64,000 bases of DNA, from positions 1 to 64,000 of IMG/VR virus record IMGVR_UViG_3300017917_002441. The stretch is one strand, 5' to 3'. This DNA is from a virus. A program made the position numbers and the translations under genes. Below, piece by piece: positions 6,012 to 11,455 of this stretch (positions within the stretch are counted from its first letter, which is position 1; each line of letters opens with the position of its first letter). The notes beneath the pieces were generated by a model. The model did no database searches. It was not told the DNA's origin and saw only the letters and a program-made list of their open reading frames with translations.

Positions 6012-6509
6012 ATGACTCGCAAACTTGAAGAACTTTTTGATCTACCGCCAACTTCCAAAGAAGTTGAAACCGCGGTTCCTGATTTAGAGGAAAACCGCAA
6101 CACCATAGTGGCTCTTGACGAAGCCATAGACAAAATAGACACAGCTCTCCCAGCAGTCAAAGGCTTAGACGCTACTGACAGTGAAATGGACGAGCTTGCC
6201 GATCTAGCTAAACAAAGCTACAACGAGTTAATGGATCTAGGTATGCAAGTAGATTCACGTTTTGCCTCGGAAATTTTTGGGGTAGCCAGCAACATGCTAG
6301 GGCATGCAATTACTGCCAAAACAGCCAAGCTAGACAAAAAGCTCAAGATGATTGATTTGCAATTGAAAAAGATGCGACTAGATCAGCAACAAGCTGATAA
6401 GGATGCTGATGCAGGCGCAGTGCAACAAGGCACAGGGGTAGTACTCAGCCGCAATGATTTGCTGGAGCAAATTCTCAAGCGCAACGATCAAAACAGTAAA
6501 AAAGAATAA
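6012..6509 (+). CDS. terS: Probable terminase small subunit (gp16-like)
   Basis: Helical 165-aa protein with C-terminal VVLSRNDLL like the gp16 tail; TAAATA upstream. Confidence 0.55.
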   Translation: MTRKLEELFDLPPTSKEVETAVPDLEENRNTIVALDEAIDKIDTALPAVKGLDATDSEMDELADLAKQSYNELMDLGMQVDSRFASEIFGVASNMLGHAITAKTAKLDKKLKMIDLQLKKMRLDQQQADKDADAGAVQQGTGVVLSRNDLLEQILKRNDQNSKKE

Positions 6510-6529
6510 ATATAGGACAGGAACCTGAC

Positions 6530-7138
6530 ATGAAACCATTTGCACAATACCTCGCTGAAAGCGAACGTACCTATGATTATCGGATCAAAATCTGCGGTAA
6601 ACCACCAGCAGACACTGTTCGATTATTGAAACAACGTCTTGATCAATTTGATCCTGTACGCATGGGAGATGAAAAGTCTACCCCGGTACAACCAATCCCC
6701 ACTGACTTCCCTAACTTCAAAAATGAATCAGTTACCATGCTTGATGTAAGCTTTCGCTATCCAGCGATTGAGCCACAAATCAAGCAACTGTTTCAGTTGT
6801 TAGGTGGCGACCCTAATCGTTTAGTAATGACCACTCGTGATTACAATGACAGCATGGCCGCTGAGTACAAGAAGATTGAAGATGAAAACCAGGATCTTGT
6901 TGCTGACACTGACTATCCTGCACCTGATGCAGAACAAAAAGGTCTCAAGAAAGACTACAGTGTAGAGGCTCATGATCACGTTGTGCTAAAAAATCAATAT
7001 CGTTCCGACTTCACAGTGGCAGGTGGCAAGACCCGTCCAGCAGTGACAACAAATGATTTCAAAACTGGTAACACCAGTCCGATGACAAAAATTAACCGTC
7101 CGGCAAAGCCAGCGACTGGTGCCAAACCAAGAGGATAA
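6530..7138 (+). CDS. Putative head/internal protein with capsid-targeting-like N-terminus
   Basis: Starts MKPFAQYLAE-S (T4 CTS is MKTYQEFIAE); TAAATA at 6507. Confidence 0.55.
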   Translation: MKPFAQYLAESERTYDYRIKICGKPPADTVRLLKQRLDQFDPVRMGDEKSTPVQPIPTDFPNFKNESVTMLDVSFRYPAIEPQIKQLFQLLGGDPNRLVMTTRDYNDSMAAEYKKIEDENQDLVADTDYPAPDAEQKGLKKDYSVEAHDHVVLKNQYRSDFTVAGGKTRPAVTTNDFKTGNTSPMTKINRPAKPATGAKPRG

Positions 7139-7142
7139 AGCA

Positions 7143-9155
7143 ATGACATTTTTCTATGACTTAAACAAAAAATTAGCCACACTGGCTGAGAAACAAGAAT
7201 CACAACAGTTATCAGAAAGTGCTGTTGCTGAACGTGCCACTGGCGATTACAGTGCTAAAGATGCACGTGCTGGCAAAGACATTGGCAAGCCAGGCAAAGG
7301 ATTTGCCAAAATTGCTAAGTCAGCTGGCGAGAAGTATGGCAGCAAAGAGCGTGGTGAGAAAGTTGCTGGTGCTGTGTTGGCCAAACTACGTGGCAAAAAC
7401 GAAGGCATTGAACAAGAAGGCAATGCATTCTCTGGCGCAGTGGCCAAGGCCAAAGCTGATGGTGTTCAACCTGGCGAGAAAATCAAAGTTGGTGGTAAGG
7501 AATATCCTGTGAGAGAAGGTGAAGTACCAGCAGAGTTTCGAGGAGCCAAGAAGTCAGATGTGCCAGCGTATCAACGCAAGGCCAAAGGCGGTGATTGGAA
7601 AGTTGGACAAAAAGATTTAGACAAAGAACGTGAACGCAACATCAGTGACCGCAAAGGCCTTGCACGTTTACGTGGTGCCGACCCTGCTGAAGTTGACGAA
7701 GGCTGGGACGACATGTTGAAGATGGTCAAAGACCGCGGCGACATGAAAGTTGGCGATACTAAAAAAGGTGCCAAAGGCACTATCACAAAAACAGCAACTG
7801 GTGTACGTCACACACGTAGCTATGACGAAAAGACCGGTGAAACTGACACAGGTGATGATGCACCAGCAGCCGGAGAAAAGCGCGGTCGTGGACGTCCCAA
7901 GAAATACACAGCAGACAATCCTCGTCAAGAGCGTACCACAGCTAAGTCACGCAAAGCTGACCGCACTGCGTACAGCAAGAAAAAAGTAAATGAATACGGT
8001 GACTTTGGTCCCATGGAAGACCAAGACGAAATGGTTGATCGTGGCGAATATGATCGCGAAGGCGACATGGCCAAAGAACAATTGCACACTATTGAAGCAG
8101 CCGCTGAAGAGCTACATGCAATTCTCAGCGACGAAGAGAATTTGCCTGAGTGGGTGCAAAGCAAAATTACCAAGGCCATGGACTACATTGACACTGCACG
8201 TGACTACATGAAGTCTAGCAAGGCCGATGATGCTGAACCTGTTGCTGAAAAGGCTCCTCCAGGCGCTAAAGCAGAACGCATGGTCAAGCACATCAAGAAG
8301 GGCTATGCCAAAGACGGCAAGCTAACTGACAAAGAAAAATCAATTGCTTATGCCACAGCTTGGAAAAGCAAAAACAAAAGCAAAAAGAAAGAAAAAGAAG
8401 TTGAAGAAAATACAGTGGCCGGCAATGTGGCACCAGCAGACGAAGCACCAAAGAGCAAAGGCAGTGGTGGATTTACATTTGGCAAAGGCATTTACGACTC
8501 TCTAAATCGTGAACTAGAAACTATGATTTCTGAAAGCATGAACATCAGCATGAACATGAGCAACAACCCTGATGGTGGCCCAGCTCATAGCTTGACTGTT
8601 ACTGCCACAGACGAAGACGCACTCAAATTGGCAACCATGTTGAAAATGGCTGGCCTTGGTGGTGGCGAGCAAGAAGGTCCTGCTACATGCGAAACCTGTA
8701 ACGAAGCACCATGTCATTGCGCCGAAATGGTTGACGAAAATCAACCTGAGTGGCCCACTGATCAAGTTGAAGCAGAAGACAATTTTGAATACAGCGGTGG
8801 CCTGAACGGCCCCAAGTCAACAGGTCAGACCACGGGTGCTCCGTTTAACCGTCAGCCACAACGCCAAGGTGCTATGGCTGAACAAGATGAGTTAGCTGGC
8901 ATGCTTGGCTTTGATGGTCAGCCTAGTTTTAACAGTAAAGAAATAAACGAACAAGAGCAGGATGAGTTAAGTCGCATGAAAGAAATGGCTGGCATTCGTG
9001 AATCTGCCAAGCCAGACTATGTTGATCTTGACAAAGATGGCAACAAAAAAGAGTCAATGAAAAAGGCTGCTGACGACAAAGCCAAGGGCGAAAAGAAAGT
9101 TGAAGAAAGTATTCTATCTTTGACAAATCTTTGGAAAGAATACAAAGGTCAGTAA
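7143..9155 (+). CDS. Modular charged virion-core-like polyprotein
   Basis: GAGGA RBS before ATG 7143; many hydrophobic-X-E sites; AT-hook KRGRGRPKK; EF-hand-like DLDKDGNKKE. Confidence 0.6.
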   Translation: MTFFYDLNKKLATLAEKQESQQLSESAVAERATGDYSAKDARAGKDIGKPGKGFAKIAKSAGEKYGSKERGEKVAGAVLAKLRGKNEGIEQEGNAFSGAVAKAKADGVQPGEKIKVGGKEYPVREGEVPAEFRGAKKSDVPAYQRKAKGGDWKVGQKDLDKERERNISDRKGLARLRGADPAEVDEGWDDMLKMVKDRGDMKVGDTKKGAKGTITKTATGVRHTRSYDEKTGETDTGDDAPAAGEKRGRGRPKKYTADNPRQERTTAKSRKADRTAYSKKKVNEYGDFGPMEDQDEMVDRGEYDREGDMAKEQLHTIEAAAEELHAILSDEENLPEWVQSKITKAMDYIDTARDYMKSSKADDAEPVAEKAPPGAKAERMVKHIKKGYAKDGKLTDKEKSIAYATAWKSKNKSKKKEKEVEENTVAGNVAPADEAPKSKGSGGFTFGKGIYDSLNRELETMISESMNISMNMSNNPDGGPAHSLTVTATDEDALKLATMLKMAGLGGGEQEGPATCETCNEAPCHCAEMVDENQPEWPTDQVEAEDNFEYSGGLNGPKSTGQTTGAPFNRQPQRQGAMAEQDELAGMLGFDGQPSFNSKEINEQEQDELSRMKEMAGIRESAKPDYVDLDKDGNKKESMKKAADDKAKGEKKVEESILSLTNLWKEYKGQ

Positions 9156-9156
9156 T

Positions 9157-9774
9157 ATGAAAAGCTTTCTTGATTATCTAGCCGAAGCAAACTATGCCGC
9201 ACAAGTTCCGGTAGTGGGCGACGACTTTGCTATCAACATTCGTGAAGAATGTTTGTTAGAAACGTATGTTTGCGAAGAAGCCATTGACGGTGTTGTGTTG
9301 TTTGCTGACGACCGCATGATGGAGATTCTTGAGAGCTATGCTTTATTAGAAACTGCACCTCACGAAACTGTGATTCTTGAAGGCATGACCAAACAGGCCA
9401 TGCACGACGATGCTGACCGCATGAGTCTTGAGCAGTTTGTTGACAAGTACGGTGACGAGGAATGGGTTCATGAGTTTTGGCACAACATCAATGATGACAT
9501 TGACGAAGCCAAGTATCAAGGACGCGAAGTTCCGCTGGGTAAGCCCATGAAGGGCGATGTTAAAAAATCCAAAGTATATGTACGTGGTCCCAAGGGCAAT
9601 GTAGTTAAGGTAAACTTTGGTCACGGTGGCACCAGTGCTAAACGTGCTGGTCAACAGACCATGAAGATCAAGAAGTCAAACCCAGCAAGACGTAAAAGTT
9701 TTAGAGCAAGACACAACTGTGATAATCCGGGCCCAAGACACAAGGCTCGCTATTGGAGCTGCCGTGCTTGGTAA
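9157..9774 (+). CDS. Putative internal protein with CTS-like leader and basic C-terminal domain
   Basis: Starts MKSFLDYLAE-A; C-terminal RRKSFRARHNC..ARYWSC domain follows IDE-A. Confidence 0.6.
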   Translation: MKSFLDYLAEANYAAQVPVVGDDFAINIREECLLETYVCEEAIDGVVLFADDRMMEILESYALLETAPHETVILEGMTKQAMHDDADRMSLEQFVDKYGDEEWVHEFWHNINDDIDEAKYQGREVPLGKPMKGDVKKSKVYVRGPKGNVVKVNFGHGGTSAKRAGQQTMKIKKSNPARRKSFRARHNCDNPGPRHKARYWSCRAW

Positions 9775-10269: not shown

Positions 10270-10641
10270 ATGCGAGCTTGCGAGTTTATCACCGAAGCCC
10301 GTGAAGGTAAATTAAGCAAACGCCTGCAGGCAGCTACTCGCGGCCTTAATACATTCTCTGATGGTGAAAAGTGGAATACTGATTACACTCTTAACCGTGT
10401 GATGATGGCAGTAGCTTGCACAGACGGATCATTTGTTCCTGACATTGACTGGAAAAGCTGGATAGGCAAATCCAAGTCTGCACATCCTTATACCAAAGAA
10501 GAGCAAGAAATGCTAAAAATGGCTTACAAGGCTGCTAATGCCAAGTGGGATGATACAAACCACGGCGACATGGACAGCGAAGAACATCCAGCAGTGAACA
10601 AAGAAAGCCCGGTCAAAGCATTCAAAGGATATCCAAGATGA
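10270..10641 (+). CDS. Putative internal protein, paralog A
   Basis: Starts MRACEFITE-A; ends SPVKAFKGYPR. Confidence 0.65.
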   Translation: MRACEFITEAREGKLSKRLQAATRGLNTFSDGEKWNTDYTLNRVMMAVACTDGSFVPDIDWKSWIGKSKSAHPYTKEEQEMLKMAYKAANAKWDDTNHGDMDSEEHPAVNKESPVKAFKGYPR

Positions 10642-11024
10642 GAGCTCGAGATTTTATCAAAGAAGAGAAAAATCTTCCAGTTGAAATCTCCGCGCCGCTA
10701 AGGCAGACGTATGTTGTGCCAGGACTCAGTGCCGCTGATCCTTACAACAATTATAGATTTGGTGTAGCAATTGCTAGAGCTAGAAGTGATTATCGTAAAA
10801 ACGACGTCAATCCACACATGCCAAACTGGAGCCCAGAAACAGCGTTTGGTGAACACGGTGTAGTTGTAGGTATGAACGCAGGTATTCAGCCTGTGATTGA
10901 TGCGGCATTGAAAATGACTGGCACCAAGGGCGGTAAAAGAATAGTATCAACTCCAGACAGCGATGAGCCTGAATTTGTTGAAAAGAAAAGCCCAGTAAAA
11001 GGCTTCAAAGGATATCCAAGATGA
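10638..11024 (+). CDS. Putative internal protein, paralog B
   Basis: Starts MRARDFIKE-E; ends SPVKGFKGYPR. Confidence 0.65.
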   Translation: MRARDFIKEEKNLPVEISAPLRQTYVVPGLSAADPYNNYRFGVAIARARSDYRKNDVNPHMPNWSPETAFGEHGVVVGMNAGIQPVIDAALKMTGTKGGKRIVSTPDSDEPEFVEKKSPVKGFKGYPR

Positions 11025-11455
11025 AAAAAGTATTAGCAATATTAATGTTGTTGCCAGCATTGGCAATGGCACAAAAAACACCACAAGGTGTCGTGTACGA
11101 TGCACAAATAGTGAGGGTCAACGATGGCGACACTGTTGTCATTGCCGCTCCCTTTCTGCCCGCACCACTCAAGCCCGAACTCGCGGTCCGAGTGTACGGA
11201 GTTGATACCCCAGAAAAAGGATTCCGCGCTCAGTGCCCTAGCGAAGATGCCAGAGGAAAAGCCGCCTCAGAATTCACTAAAAATGCAGTTAACGCCTCAA
11301 CTCAACGTCAAGTCGTTCTCTATTCATGGGATAAGTTCGGCGGTCGTGTACTGGGAGACATCATTCTAAACGGCCAAAGTCTACGTGCTATGTTAATCGC
11401 CAATGGTTTTGCTCGTGAATATTATGGCGACGCAAAACAAAGCTGGTGCCATTGA
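11021..11455 (+). CDS. Thermonuclease (SNase-like) with signal peptide
   Basis: DGDT, VRVYGVDTPE and DKFGGRVL motifs; N-terminal MKKVLAILMLLPALAMA. Confidence 0.9.
   Translation: MKKVLAILMLLPALAMAQKTPQGVVYDAQIVRVNDGDTVVIAAPFLPAPLKPELAVRVYGVDTPEKGFRAQCPSEDARGKAASEFTKNAVNASTQRQVVLYSWDKFGGRVLGDIILNGQSLRAMLIANGFAREYYGDAKQSWCH

What the first reader, a model, noticed from the sequence alone, without database searches (positions are those of the whole stretch)
7143..9155. Beads-on-a-string polyprotein punctuated by about 15 putative protease sites
Seen: LSE-S, VAE-R, VRE-G, VDE-G, VNE-Y, VAE-K, VEE-N, ISE-S, VDE-N, MAE-Q, INE-Q, IRE-S, VEE-S and similar sites separate short modules of distinct character. 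These include basic K/G-rich blocks, an AT-hook (KRGRGRPKK), a helical block (MAKEQL..LPEWVQSKITKAMDY), a Cys cluster (CETCNEAPCHC) and an EF-hand-like loop (DLDKDGNKKE). Inference: one gene yields many small peptides inside the capsid, and homologues may vary by gaining or losing whole modules at these sites. AT-hooks are unusual in phages.
Basis: partly seen in the sequence, partly recalled or inferred. Interest (0 to 1): 0.7.

Follow-up and report, generated by a model that had tools for sequence, protein, structure and literature searches.

The report
Protease-jointed phage head cargo polyprotein
An uncultured giant T4-like phage encodes a 670-residue chain of small, swappable protein modules whose joints carry the cutting motif of the T4-type head protease, so it is probably loaded into the capsid and cut into many small pieces, although no cut or packaging has been measured.

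Summary
The ORF (7143-9155, +, 670 aa) and all listed sites and modules are real. It has 16 [LIVM]-x-E sites. That is only marginally above chance for the whole protein (10.3 expected, p=0.03). The signal sits in the linkers. In AlphaFold-disordered segments 8 of 22 L/I/V/M residues are followed by x-E (2.9 expected). Across 70 non-redundant homologues the linker motif is 2.4-fold enriched, and every control motif is flat or depleted.

About ten module types are immediately preceded by [LIVM]-x-E in 61-100% of their distinct upstream contexts. Indels, module replacements and reordering between homologues fall at these joints. The same modules occur in another order in small cyanophage proteins with a T4-like capsid-targeting leader.

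Related genomes carrying the gene encode a T4 gp21-type protease and a gp23-type capsid protein. The upstream neighbour's PA5oct homologue and the positional counterpart there are virion proteins by mass spectrometry.

Best reading (about 0.6): an internal-head polyprotein cut at roughly 6-10 linker sites. Cleavage, packaging and fate are inferred, not shown. This is a new variant of the T4 internal-protein system. This scan has already noted the same design on other DNA. I found no published description.

The parts
7143..9155 (+). 670-aa modular protein. It has a conserved leader, about 10 small modules, disordered linkers and a conserved C-terminal tail (consensus LWKxYKG).
   Evidence: more than 4500 homologues; 30 conserved blocks with hypervariable linkers; AlphaFold2 model.
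7143..7217 (+). Leader, residues 1-25 (MTFFYDLNKKLATLAEKQESQQLSE|S). Predicted helix 2-17, followed by the first conserved site LSE25. Candidate capsid-targeting propeptide.
   Evidence: MTFFYDLN in 163 of 193 homologues. LSE25 motif in 81% of representatives. Helix pLDDT about 80.
7224..7232 (+). VAE30|R site immediately before the basic DYSAK...LAKLR module.
   Evidence: The DYSAK-type module is preceded by [LIVM]xE in 70 of 75 distinct upstream contexts.
7239..7397 (+). Basic K/G-rich helical module, residues 33-85 (GDYSAKDARAGKDIGKPGKGFAKIAK...LAKLRGK).
   Evidence: Highly conserved blocks 3-6. Helices 52-87. Also found C-terminally in other proteins such as P0193 and P0203.
7410..7418 (+). 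E92|GN joint. It reads IEQE in this protein and M-x-E|GN in most homologues. It is an indel hot spot, with a linker of 2-200 aa.
   Evidence: E92, G93 and N94 nearly invariant; 53-aa SALQAY module inserted here in P0004, flanked by MDE|.
7509..7517 (+). VRE125|G conserved joint, followed by a linker of 0-147 aa in homologues.
   Evidence: 76%.
7692..7700 (+). VDE186|G joint before the GWDDM module.
   Evidence: GWDDM is preceded directly by [LIVM]xE in 21 of 24 contexts.
7878..7904 (+). AT-hook-like KRGRGRPKK in a disordered segment.
   Evidence: Pfam AT_hook 14.6 bits, below the cut-off. G250 and R251 invariant, P252 nearly so. pLDDT below 50.
8031..8216 (+). Helical hairpin module, residues 297-358 (GEYDREGDMAKEQL...DYMKS). 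It contains LPE336 in the inter-helix turn.
   Evidence: the same module in cyanophage S-H9-1 gp148, in the other order. This is the only module type without an upstream site (5% of contexts).
8241..8249 (+). VAE369|K, the best conserved linker joint. It is an island in an otherwise variable linker.
   Evidence: Motif in 93% of representatives and E369 invariant. The DUF3008 start KAVS directly follows [LIVM]xE in 103 of 105 contexts.
8250..8378 (+). DUF6321-type basic module, residues 370-412. It replaces the DUF3008 module that close homologues carry in this slot.
   Evidence: About 91% identical to S-H9-1 gp148.
8400..8408 (+). VEE422|N joint that closes the replaceable slot.
   Evidence: 77% of representatives. 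V-x-E directly precedes TT.AGSVA in 67 of 69 contexts.
8451..8663 (+). Alpha/beta module, residues 437-507 (GGFTFGKGIYDS...ISE464|SMNIS...TVTATDEDA..LKMAGLGG). The invariant ISE lies at a helix-strand junction.
   Evidence: 100%; pLDDT 68-83.
8688..8720 (+). Cys cluster CETCNEAPCHC (family pattern C..C....C.C).
   Evidence: (block 26).
8730..8738 (+). VDE532|N joint before the NxPDWP...YSGGLNGPKSTGQTT block.
   Evidence: 84% of representatives. Directly precedes the block in 92 of 113 contexts. pLDDT below 50.
8874..8951 (+). Segment MAE580|QDEL...INE603|Q, specific to this protein. It is bracketed by two sites and absent from close homologues.
   Evidence: P0004 lacks it; sites not conserved; linker of 1-330 aa here.
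8994..9062 (+). IRE620|S followed by the EF-hand-like module SAKPDYVDLDKDGNKKESMK.
   Evidence: The KPD[YF]xDxD module is preceded by [LIVM]xE in 85 of 88 distinct contexts, after many different upstream modules.
9099..9152 (+). VEE655|S followed by the conserved C-terminal helix SILSLTNLWKEYKGQ.
   Evidence: blocks 28-29; 49%; helix 657-669.
6530..7138 (+). Upstream 202-aa protein with the T4-CTS-like leader MKPFAQYLAE|S. It is a homologue of PA5oct virion protein gp282.
   Evidence: E=1e-11.
9157..9774 (+). Downstream 205-aa protein with leader MKSFLDYLAE|A. It has the strongest [LIVM]xE excess in the record.
   Evidence: 10 sites against 3.5 expected.
10270..11024 (+). Two paralogous small proteins with leaders MRACEFITE|A and MRARDFIKE|E.
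6507..6512 (+). TAAATA late-promoter-like motif 18 nt upstream of the 6530 ORF. The target follows that ORF after a 4-nt gap.
   Evidence: Six of seven occurrences in the first 20 kb lie in intergenic or gene-end sequence; five are 10-30 nt upstream of an ORF start.

Best explanation
The gene encodes an internal-head (prohead-core) cargo polyprotein of an uncultured T4-superfamily jumbo myovirus of about 350 kb.

Proposed mechanism:
1. It is made late, together with the neighbouring leader-bearing proteins.
2. The conserved N-terminal helix (MTFFYDLNKKL...) takes it into the scaffolding core.
3. When the gp21-type prohead protease is activated, it cuts after Glu in [V/L/M/I]-x-E motifs exposed in the disordered linkers. 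The most likely cuts are at E25/E30, E92, E125, E186, E369, E422, E532, E620 and E655.
4. This removes the leader and releases small pieces of 3-27 kDa. The N-terminal half gives basic pieces (pI 9-10, including an AT-hook-like peptide). The C-terminal half gives acidic ones.
5. The pieces stay with the packaged DNA or are ejected with it.

Each module travels in evolution as a cassette of site plus module. This lets related phages add, drop, replace and reorder cargo without breaking processing.

Shown here: the motif's linker-specific enrichment, its position at module starts, indels at the joints, the protease in relatives, and the virion status of PA5oct counterparts.

Inferred: packaging, cleavage, which sites are used, and the fate and function of the pieces.
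For: 1. Motif specificity. In linkers of 70 representatives (<70% identity), [LIVM]xE occurs 534 times against 219.5 in within-linker shuffles (2.43-fold). The controls are [LIVM]xD 0.81, [LIVM]xK 0.95, [LIVM]E 0.99, [LIVM]xxE 0.67 and [SAG]xE 0.63. Around linker Glu only P3 is hydrophobic-enriched (2.26-fold, V>M>L>I). There is no such signal around Asp or Lys.

2. Cassette structure. Ten of 11 module anchors have [LIVM]xE ending 0-4 residues upstream, in 61-100% of distinct contexts. P1 is always Glu, P3 varies among V/L/M/I, and P2 is free.

3. Indels and replacements fall at the joints. The same modules occur reordered in other proteins, and in cyanophage proteins with the leader MKTFKQLRE|.

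4. Accessibility. 8 of the 22 L/I/V/M residues in pLDDT<50 segments begin a site, against 2.9 expected. Glu residues in the motif are better conserved than other Glu (0.56 versus 0.30, p=0.006).

5. Enzyme and bona fide substrates in the clade. PF03420 (E about 1e-24) and PF07068 (E about 1e-98) are found in 4 of 5 related records that carry the gene. The scaffold has 24 sites against 11-12 expected. The capsid protein has 4 of its 5 sites in the first 45 residues.

6. Context. The gene lies in the structural gene block, in synteny conserved as far as PA5oct. There the neighbour's homologue (gp282, E=1e-11) and the positional counterpart (gp281) were detected in virions by ESI-MS/MS. Neighbouring genes carry T4-CTS-like leaders (CTS MKTYQEFIAE as printed in PMC8442874).

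7. Precedent. gp21 cuts after L/I-x-E, and gp22, gp67 and gp68 are cut into multiple fragments (PMC9026906).
Against: - There are no proteomic, structural or expression data for this phage or any member of the family.
- The whole-protein site excess is marginal (p=0.03; 9th of 140 ORFs).
- The window's own record lacks the protease. It is a fragment judged 44% complete.
- The target's leader resembles the T4 CTS only loosely. Its first conserved site is at residue 25, not 10.
- PA5oct gp281 shows no detectable sequence similarity, and the leader of PA5oct gp282 lacks a Glu site.
- Several conserved sites (LPE336, ISE464) lie inside predicted folds, where they may be structural rather than cleaved.
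- The helical module has no upstream site.
- Enrichment z-scores are inflated by shared ancestry. In purely lineage-specific inserts the excess is only 1.4-fold.
- V and M at P3 go beyond the L/I reported for T4.
Confidence: 0.6

Rival explanations
1. The protein is a packaged internal or ejection protein that loses only its N-terminal leader, as T4 IPs and Alt do. It then functions as one long, flexible multidomain protein. The other hydrophobic-x-Glu motifs are not cut.
For: In T4, proteins that remain in the virion lose only N-terminal propeptides (PMC9026906). The N- and C-termini are the most conserved parts, which suggests function as a whole. Some sites lie inside folds.
Against: This does not explain why [LIVM]xE, and no control motif, is 2.4-fold enriched in otherwise unconserved linkers. 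It does not explain why nearly every module start is preceded by the motif in many different contexts. It does not explain why inserts bring their own site.
Confidence: 0.15
2. The protein is a sacrificial prohead-core (scaffold-accessory) protein like T4 gp67, gp68 and gp22. It helps build or size the large core, is then cut at many sites, and the fragments leave the head before DNA enters. It would not be cargo.
For: T4 core proteins are the ones cut into multiple fragments (PMC9026906). The gp22-like scaffold of relatives shows a similar 2-fold site excess. A repeat unit (AEKAGKKVAKDIEYDE) is shared between a target homologue and the acidic protein encoded next to the protease.
Against: The modules are strongly conserved small folds and motifs: the GRP core, four Cys, and basic DNA-binding-like blocks. 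They are exchanged with small leader-bearing cyanophage proteins. That fits cargo better than filler. The gene lies about 40 kb from the protease-scaffold-capsid module in a related record. There is no similarity to gp22, gp67 or gp68 families in Pfam or PHROGs.
Confidence: 0.12
3. The protein is not a protease substrate or not in the head. The hydrophobic-x-Glu joints would be a by-product of how modules recombine or of linker physics. The protein could be, for example, a cytoplasmic multivalent DNA-, cation- or protein-binding factor, or a tail or neck component.
For: There is no direct evidence of packaging. Any Glu is also enriched at indel boundaries (271 against 164.5), and [SAG]xE moderately so. 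The whole-protein excess is marginal.
Against: P2 is free and P3 is degenerate within V/L/M/I, so there is no conserved DNA joint for recombination. The signal is register-specific (P3 only), unlike amphipathic or charge patterns. [SAG]xE is depleted in linkers. Late structural gene context and PA5oct virion counterparts also argue against this.
Confidence: 0.1

Closest known systems
Phage T4 internal proteins IPI, IPII, IPIII and Alt (capsid targeting sequence plus gp21 processing)
   Same: The phage belongs to the T4 superfamily, and relatives have a gp21-type S77 protease. The gene sits in a cluster whose members carry MKxFxxYLAE-type leaders like MKTYQEFIAE. The cutting motif is hydrophobic-x-Glu. 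Cargo content is variable and fast-evolving.
   Different: T4 IPs are single small proteins, each with its own leader and a single cut. Here one leader precedes a chain of about 10 modules with a site at nearly every joint. The leader is longer, with its first conserved site at residue 25. P3 is mostly Val. There is no sequence homology to the IPs.
T4 prohead core proteins gp22, gp67 and gp68
   Same: These are cut by gp21 into multiple fragments at L/I-x-E. Some of the resulting peptides stay in the head.
   Different: There is no sequence similarity. The target lies outside the protease-scaffold-capsid module. It is built of conserved, exchangeable mini-domains rather than one helical scaffold.
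Processed inner-body and ejection proteins of phiKZ, 201phi2-1 and SPN3US
   Same: Giant phages pack large amounts of internal protein processed after Glu by a gp21-related protease (PMC9026906, PMC10052503).
   Different: Those phages use S/A-x-E, a motif that is depleted in these linkers (0.63-fold). Their substrates are not described as chains of shuffled mini-modules. The clade is different.
Polyvalent proteins of phages and conjugative elements (Iyer et al. 2017, PMC5512222)
   Same: Many unrelated modules are carried in one polypeptide, encoded among virion genes, predicted to be delivered with the DNA and to be split into units. Module content is highly variable.
   Different: Polyvalent proteins carry enzymatic conflict domains and usually an embedded MPTase-type peptidase. 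This protein has no Pfam enzyme or peptidase domain. Its modules are 20-70 residues, and cutting would be done in trans by the prohead protease.
PA5oct gp281 and gp282 (Arenbergviridae virion proteins)
   Same: The gene order is identical: sheath, tube, tube, small protein, head closure, small protein, 200-aa protein, long protein, terminase. gp282 is homologous to the upstream neighbour. Both are detected in virions.
   Different: gp281 (498 aa) has no detectable similarity to the target by BLASTP or profile comparison. No processing data were found in PMC7318152.

Membership tests
T4-type capsid-targeted internal proteins processed by gp21 | The phage encodes a gp21-type (Peptidase_S77) prohead protease. 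| tested here: met
   PF03420 above its cut-off (E about 1e-24) in 4 of 5 related IMG/VR records that carry the target homologue, next to a gp23-type capsid protein. Not found in the window's own 149-kb record, which is a fragment judged 44% complete.
T4-type capsid-targeted internal proteins processed by gp21 | An N-terminal capsid targeting sequence of about 10 residues like MKTYQEFIAE, ending in a cleavage site. | tested here: inconclusive
   The neighbours fit well (MKPFAQYLAE|S, MKSFLDYLAE|A, MRACEFITE|A). The target's MTFFYDLNKKLATLAE shares only M..F.D, and its first conserved site is LSE25. There is no functional test.
T4-type capsid-targeted internal proteins processed by gp21 | Cleavage C-terminal to Glu in L/I-x-E. 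| not testable with these tools
   The motif is present, linker-enriched and located at joints. Actual cleavage needs mass spectrometry or an in vitro assay.
T4-type capsid-targeted internal proteins processed by gp21 | Physically present in the prohead core or mature head. | not testable with these tools
   Only indirect evidence: structural gene context, and PA5oct gp281/gp282 detected in virions by ESI-MS/MS.
T4 prohead core proteins gp22/gp67/gp68 | Sequence membership, or location within the protease-scaffold-capsid module. | tested here: not met
   No Pfam or PHROG match to these families. A separate gp22-like scaffold and an acidic protein sit next to the protease in relatives. The target lies about 40 kb away.
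Polyvalent proteins (Iyer et al. 2017) | Several enzymatic or conflict domains plus, typically, an embedded processing peptidase (MPTase). | tested here: not met
   No Pfam domain at E<=0.01 in the target, and only DUF3008 in homologues. No structural match in the PDB.
Polyvalent proteins (Iyer et al. 2017) | Encoded among virion or late genes, with highly variable module content. | tested here: met
   Synteny with sheath, tube, head closure and terminase. Homologue lengths range from 464 to 1037 aa with module gain, loss and replacement.
AT-hook (PF02178) | A GRP core flanked by basic residues, scoring above Pfam's gathering cut-off. | tested here: inconclusive
   14.6 bits against a cut-off of 17.4 (16.0 in P0002). 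The G250-R251-P252 core is invariant or nearly invariant in 94 sequences.
DUF3008 (PF11450) / DUF6321 | A match to the family profile in the slot after VAE369. | tested here: met
   The query gives no DUF3008 hit. Close homologues do (E about 2e-13). The query's slot instead matches cyanophage proteins annotated as DUF6321 and is about 91% identical to S-H9-1 gp148.
EF-hand / dockerin-type calcium loop | A canonical 12-residue loop scoring above the Pfam cut-offs. | tested here: not met
   No hit in the query at E<=1. Homologues score below the cut-offs (Dockerin_1 20.7 against 22.9 bits; EF-hand_1 12.2 against 25.4). The query loop DLDKDGNKKE has Glu at loop position 10, not 12.

The most novel reading that the evidence does not exclude
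T4-like jumbo phages and cyanophages share a plug-in system for capsid cargo. A pool of mini-modules (DNA-binding, cation-binding, Cys-knuckle, DUF3008/DUF6321 and others) circulates as cassettes, each consisting of a protease site plus a module. Any number of cassettes can be strung behind a single capsid-targeting leader. The head protease then turns one gene into a changeable cocktail of small proteins, packaged in fixed proportions and injected with the DNA.
Probability: 0.45. Interest if true: 0.75.

Novelty: new variant of a known kind. Interest (0 to 1): 0.62.

Why it matters
If the chain is really cut in the head, it extends the T4 internal-protein paradigm from one leader with one protein to one leader with many exchangeable products. 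That would explain a very large family of unannotated proteins (more than 4500 clusters, many labelled only DUF3008) in uncultured freshwater and marine jumbo phages.

It would assign a role to DUF3008 and DUF6321 as capsid-internal modules. It would show a protease site acting as an evolutionary joint for module shuffling.

It would also suggest a natural design rule for loading several passengers into T4-type capsids, which are already engineered through the CTS.

The claim is directly testable by expressing the protein with its cognate protease, or by searching metaproteomes for peptides that begin after [LIVM]xE.

Tried and rejected
- Homology of the target to PA5oct gp281. BLASTP gave E=0.6 and hhalign gave probability 0.3. 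It is a positional counterpart only.
- Foldseek of the AlphaFold2 model against the PDB. Nothing scored below E=0.27. The model is low confidence overall (mean pLDDT 61), so the modules have no assigned fold.
- Megablast of the 8-kb locus against cultured phages gave no match.
- PF03420 in the window's own record gave no match. This is uninformative because the record is a fragment. It was resolved through related records.
- The T4 late promoter TATAAATA occurs once in 64 kb, which is not enriched. Only the shorter TAAATA sits upstream of late-looking genes.
- BLAST HSP end-points on the query were tried as a map of module boundaries. Gapped HSPs ran through the indels, so the map was uninformative except near residues 580-584.
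- Single-linkage clustering of inserted segments to obtain independent events. Low-complexity similarity merged 371 of 489 into one cluster. The z-scores should therefore be read as relative to the control motifs, not as probabilities.
- A phiKZ-type S/A/G-x-E motif was considered and rejected. It is depleted in the protein (12 against 18.8) and in linkers (0.63-fold).
- The GTG 7119 start was rejected in favour of ATG 7143.
Apparent split or short forms (P0148, P0173, P0239 and others) could not be told apart from frameshifts or truncated gene calls.
Full report
**What is there**

The ORF at 7143-9155 (+) encodes 670 aa. ATG 7143 is the true start. It has an AGAGGA ribosome-binding site. It gives MTFFYDLN, the N-terminus of 163 of 193 homologues. 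The AT-hook-like KRGRGRPKK, the helical block, the CETCNEAPCHC cluster and the DLDKDGNKKE loop are also present.

**Where it comes from**

The window is the first 64 kb of a 149-kb IMG/VR virus record judged 44% complete. This implies a jumbo phage of about 350 kb.

The gene lies in a structural block: tail sheath, tail tube, a second tube-like protein, a 119-aa protein, a gp4-like head-closure protein, a 165-aa protein, a 202-aa protein, the target, several small proteins, then a radical-SAM gene, another ORF and the large terminase. The sheath is 40-45% identical to those of PA5oct, Atu_ph07 and the Rak2/GAP32-like jumbo phages.

The gene order is conserved in related metagenomic records and in PA5oct. 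There, the homologue of the 202-aa neighbour (gp282, E=1e-11) and the long protein in the target's position (gp281) were both found in virions by ESI-MS/MS. gp281 itself shows no sequence similarity to the target.

A TAAATA motif sits just upstream of several ORFs of this block, including the 6530 ORF that directly precedes the target.

**The protease**

The window's own record lacks a head module. Four of five related records that carry a target homologue do have one, including one complete genome of 364 kb with terminal repeats. They encode a T4 gp21-type Peptidase_S77 (E about 1e-24) and a gp23-type capsid protein (E about 1e-98). A gp22-like scaffold lies between the two, and an acidic protein lies in front.

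T4 gp21 cuts after Glu in L/I-x-E. It cuts gp22, gp67 and gp68 into multiple fragments (PMC9026906). In this clade the scaffold has 24 [LIVM]xE against 11-12 expected. The capsid protein has 4 of its 5 sites in the first 45 residues, as expected for a T4-like propeptide.

**Is the site count more than chance?**

For the whole protein, barely. Shuffles give 10.25 +/- 2.75 against 16 observed (p=0.03). The ORF ranks 9th of 140 in the record.

The signal is in the linkers. An AlphaFold2 model built on 94 sequences shows small folded modules joined by segments with pLDDT below 50.
- In those segments 8 of 22 L/I/V/M residues are followed by x-E, against 2.9 expected (p=0.006).
- In ordered parts the figure is 8 of 75, against 7 expected.
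- Across 70 representatives (<70% identity), linker [LIVM]xE occurs 534 times against 219.5 in within-linker shuffles (2.43-fold).
- The controls [LIVM]xD, [LIVM]xK, [LIVM]E, [LIVM]xxE, Ex[LIVM] and [SAG]xE range from 0.63 to 1.18.
- Around linker Glu only position -2 is enriched in hydrophobic residues (2.26-fold, V>M>L>I). There is nothing similar around Asp or Lys.
- Glu residues in the motif are better conserved than other Glu (0.56 against 0.30, p=0.006). Seven sites are kept in 76-100% of representatives.

These figures count related sequences, so the ratios against controls are more reliable than the z-scores. In purely lineage-specific inserts the excess is only 1.4-fold.

**Modules and joints**

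The family has more than 4500 clusters of similar length, with members of 464-1037 aa. It aligns as 30 conserved blocks separated by linkers that vary by up to 330 residues.

Close homologues differ by whole modules at the sites:
- a 53-aa SALQAY module flanked by MDE| is inserted after residue 85;
- the slot between VAE369| and VEE422| holds DUF3008 in close relatives but a DUF6321-type module here;
- a segment bracketed by MAE580| and INE603| is unique to this protein.

Among 425 insertions of at least 10 aa, [LIVM]xE lies within 2 residues of the left boundary in 134 (50.6 expected). It lies at the right boundary in 93 (49 expected) and at both in 47 (5.1 expected). [LIVM]xD and [LIVM]xK show no consistent excess.

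I anchored on 11 module types in 313 sequences. Ten of them are preceded within 0-4 residues by [LIVM]xE, in 61-100% of their distinct upstream contexts. The helical GEYD module is the exception, at 5%. At these joints P1 is always Glu, P3 is V 55%, L 17%, M 15% and I 14%, and P2 is free. This argues for selection on the peptide rather than a conserved recombination joint.

Shorter proteins carry the same modules in other orders, again each behind a site. Cyanophage S-H9-1 gp148 starts with MKTFKQLRE|. It then carries the DUF6321 module, about 91% identical to the one here, starting right after LQE|KAP. The helical module follows, which is the reverse of the order here. S-RSM4 060 has the DUF6321 module alone.

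**Leaders**

The neighbours start MKPFAQYLAE|S, MKSFLDYLAE|A, MRACEFITE|A and MRARDFIKE|E. These are close to the T4 capsid targeting sequence MKTYQEFIAE (printed in PMC8442874; its role is described in PMC9026906 and PMC3012670).

The target's own leader is a longer conserved helix. Its first conserved site is at residue 25, so its identity as a targeting sequence is plausible but untested.

**Interpretation**

The best reading (about 0.6) is an internal-head cargo polyprotein cut by the gp21-type protease at some 6-10 linker joints. Cutting at the conserved linker sites would give basic pieces from the N-terminal half and acidic pieces from the C-terminal half.

The rivals are removal of the leader only (0.15), a sacrificial core protein whose fragments leave the head (0.12), and not a head substrate at all (0.10). 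No tool here can show cleavage or packaging.

**Comparison and novelty**

The nearest known systems are:
- the T4 internal proteins with CTS and gp21 processing;
- the multiply cut T4 core proteins;
- the processed internal proteins of phiKZ-like phages, which use a different motif that is depleted here;
- the polyvalent proteins of Iyer et al. (PMC5512222), which have enzymatic domains and an embedded peptidase that this protein lacks.

Full-text searches found no paper on DUF3008 or DUF6321, and none describing capsid-targeted polyproteins jointed by prohead-protease sites. Earlier notes of this scan describe the same design in other genomes, including homologues of this very family. They are unverified AI notes and I did not use them as evidence. 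I file this as a new variant of a known kind.

Noticed in passing
window 9157-9774 (+): A 205-aa protein with leader MKSFLDYLAE|A has the highest [LIVM]xE excess of all 140 ORFs in the record (10 against 3.5). Its C-terminal half matches phrog_7595. It is absent from the syntenic loci L077, L072 and L058.
   Followed up: partly
window 10270-10641 and 10638-11024 (+): Two adjacent paralogues share a leader MRAxxFIxE| and the C-terminus SPVKxFKGYPR. Both are conserved in related loci. Their function is unknown.
   Followed up: partly
window 3381, 6002, 6507, 11482, 14939, 16781: TAAATA lies in intergenic or gene-end sequence at six of its seven occurrences in the first 20 kb, five of them 10-30 nt upstream of an ORF start. 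This looks like a shortened T4-type late promoter. The full TATAAATA occurs only once in 64 kb.
   Followed up: partly
window 8250-8378; L091:2803-3342: The DUF6321-type module is about 91% identical between this jumbo phage and the Synechococcus phage S-H9-1. Yet 70%-identical relatives of the target carry DUF3008 in the same slot. This suggests recent exchange of a single module between distant T4-like lineages.
   Followed up: partly
L082 (acidic 285-aa ORF next to the S77 protease) and homologue P0028: A repeat unit AEKAGKKVAKDIEYDE occurs both in the acidic protein encoded beside the protease and as an insert in a target homologue. This links the module pool to prohead-core proteins.
   Followed up: no
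window 11021-11455 (+): A staphylococcal-nuclease-like protein (PF00565, E=1e-9) with a signal-peptide-like N-terminus is conserved just downstream of the leader-bearing cluster in related loci.
   Followed up: no
own record beyond the window (G000 73844-77241 and 98123-98713): ORFs with N-terminal signatures like ClpX, DnaK and ClpP. I judged this by eye only and did not scan them against profiles.
   Followed up: no
proteins P0148, P0173, P0198, P0201 and P0239: Short forms on long contigs carry only the N-terminal or only the C-terminal half of the family architecture. They could be natural splits, frameshifts or gene-calling artefacts.
   Followed up: no
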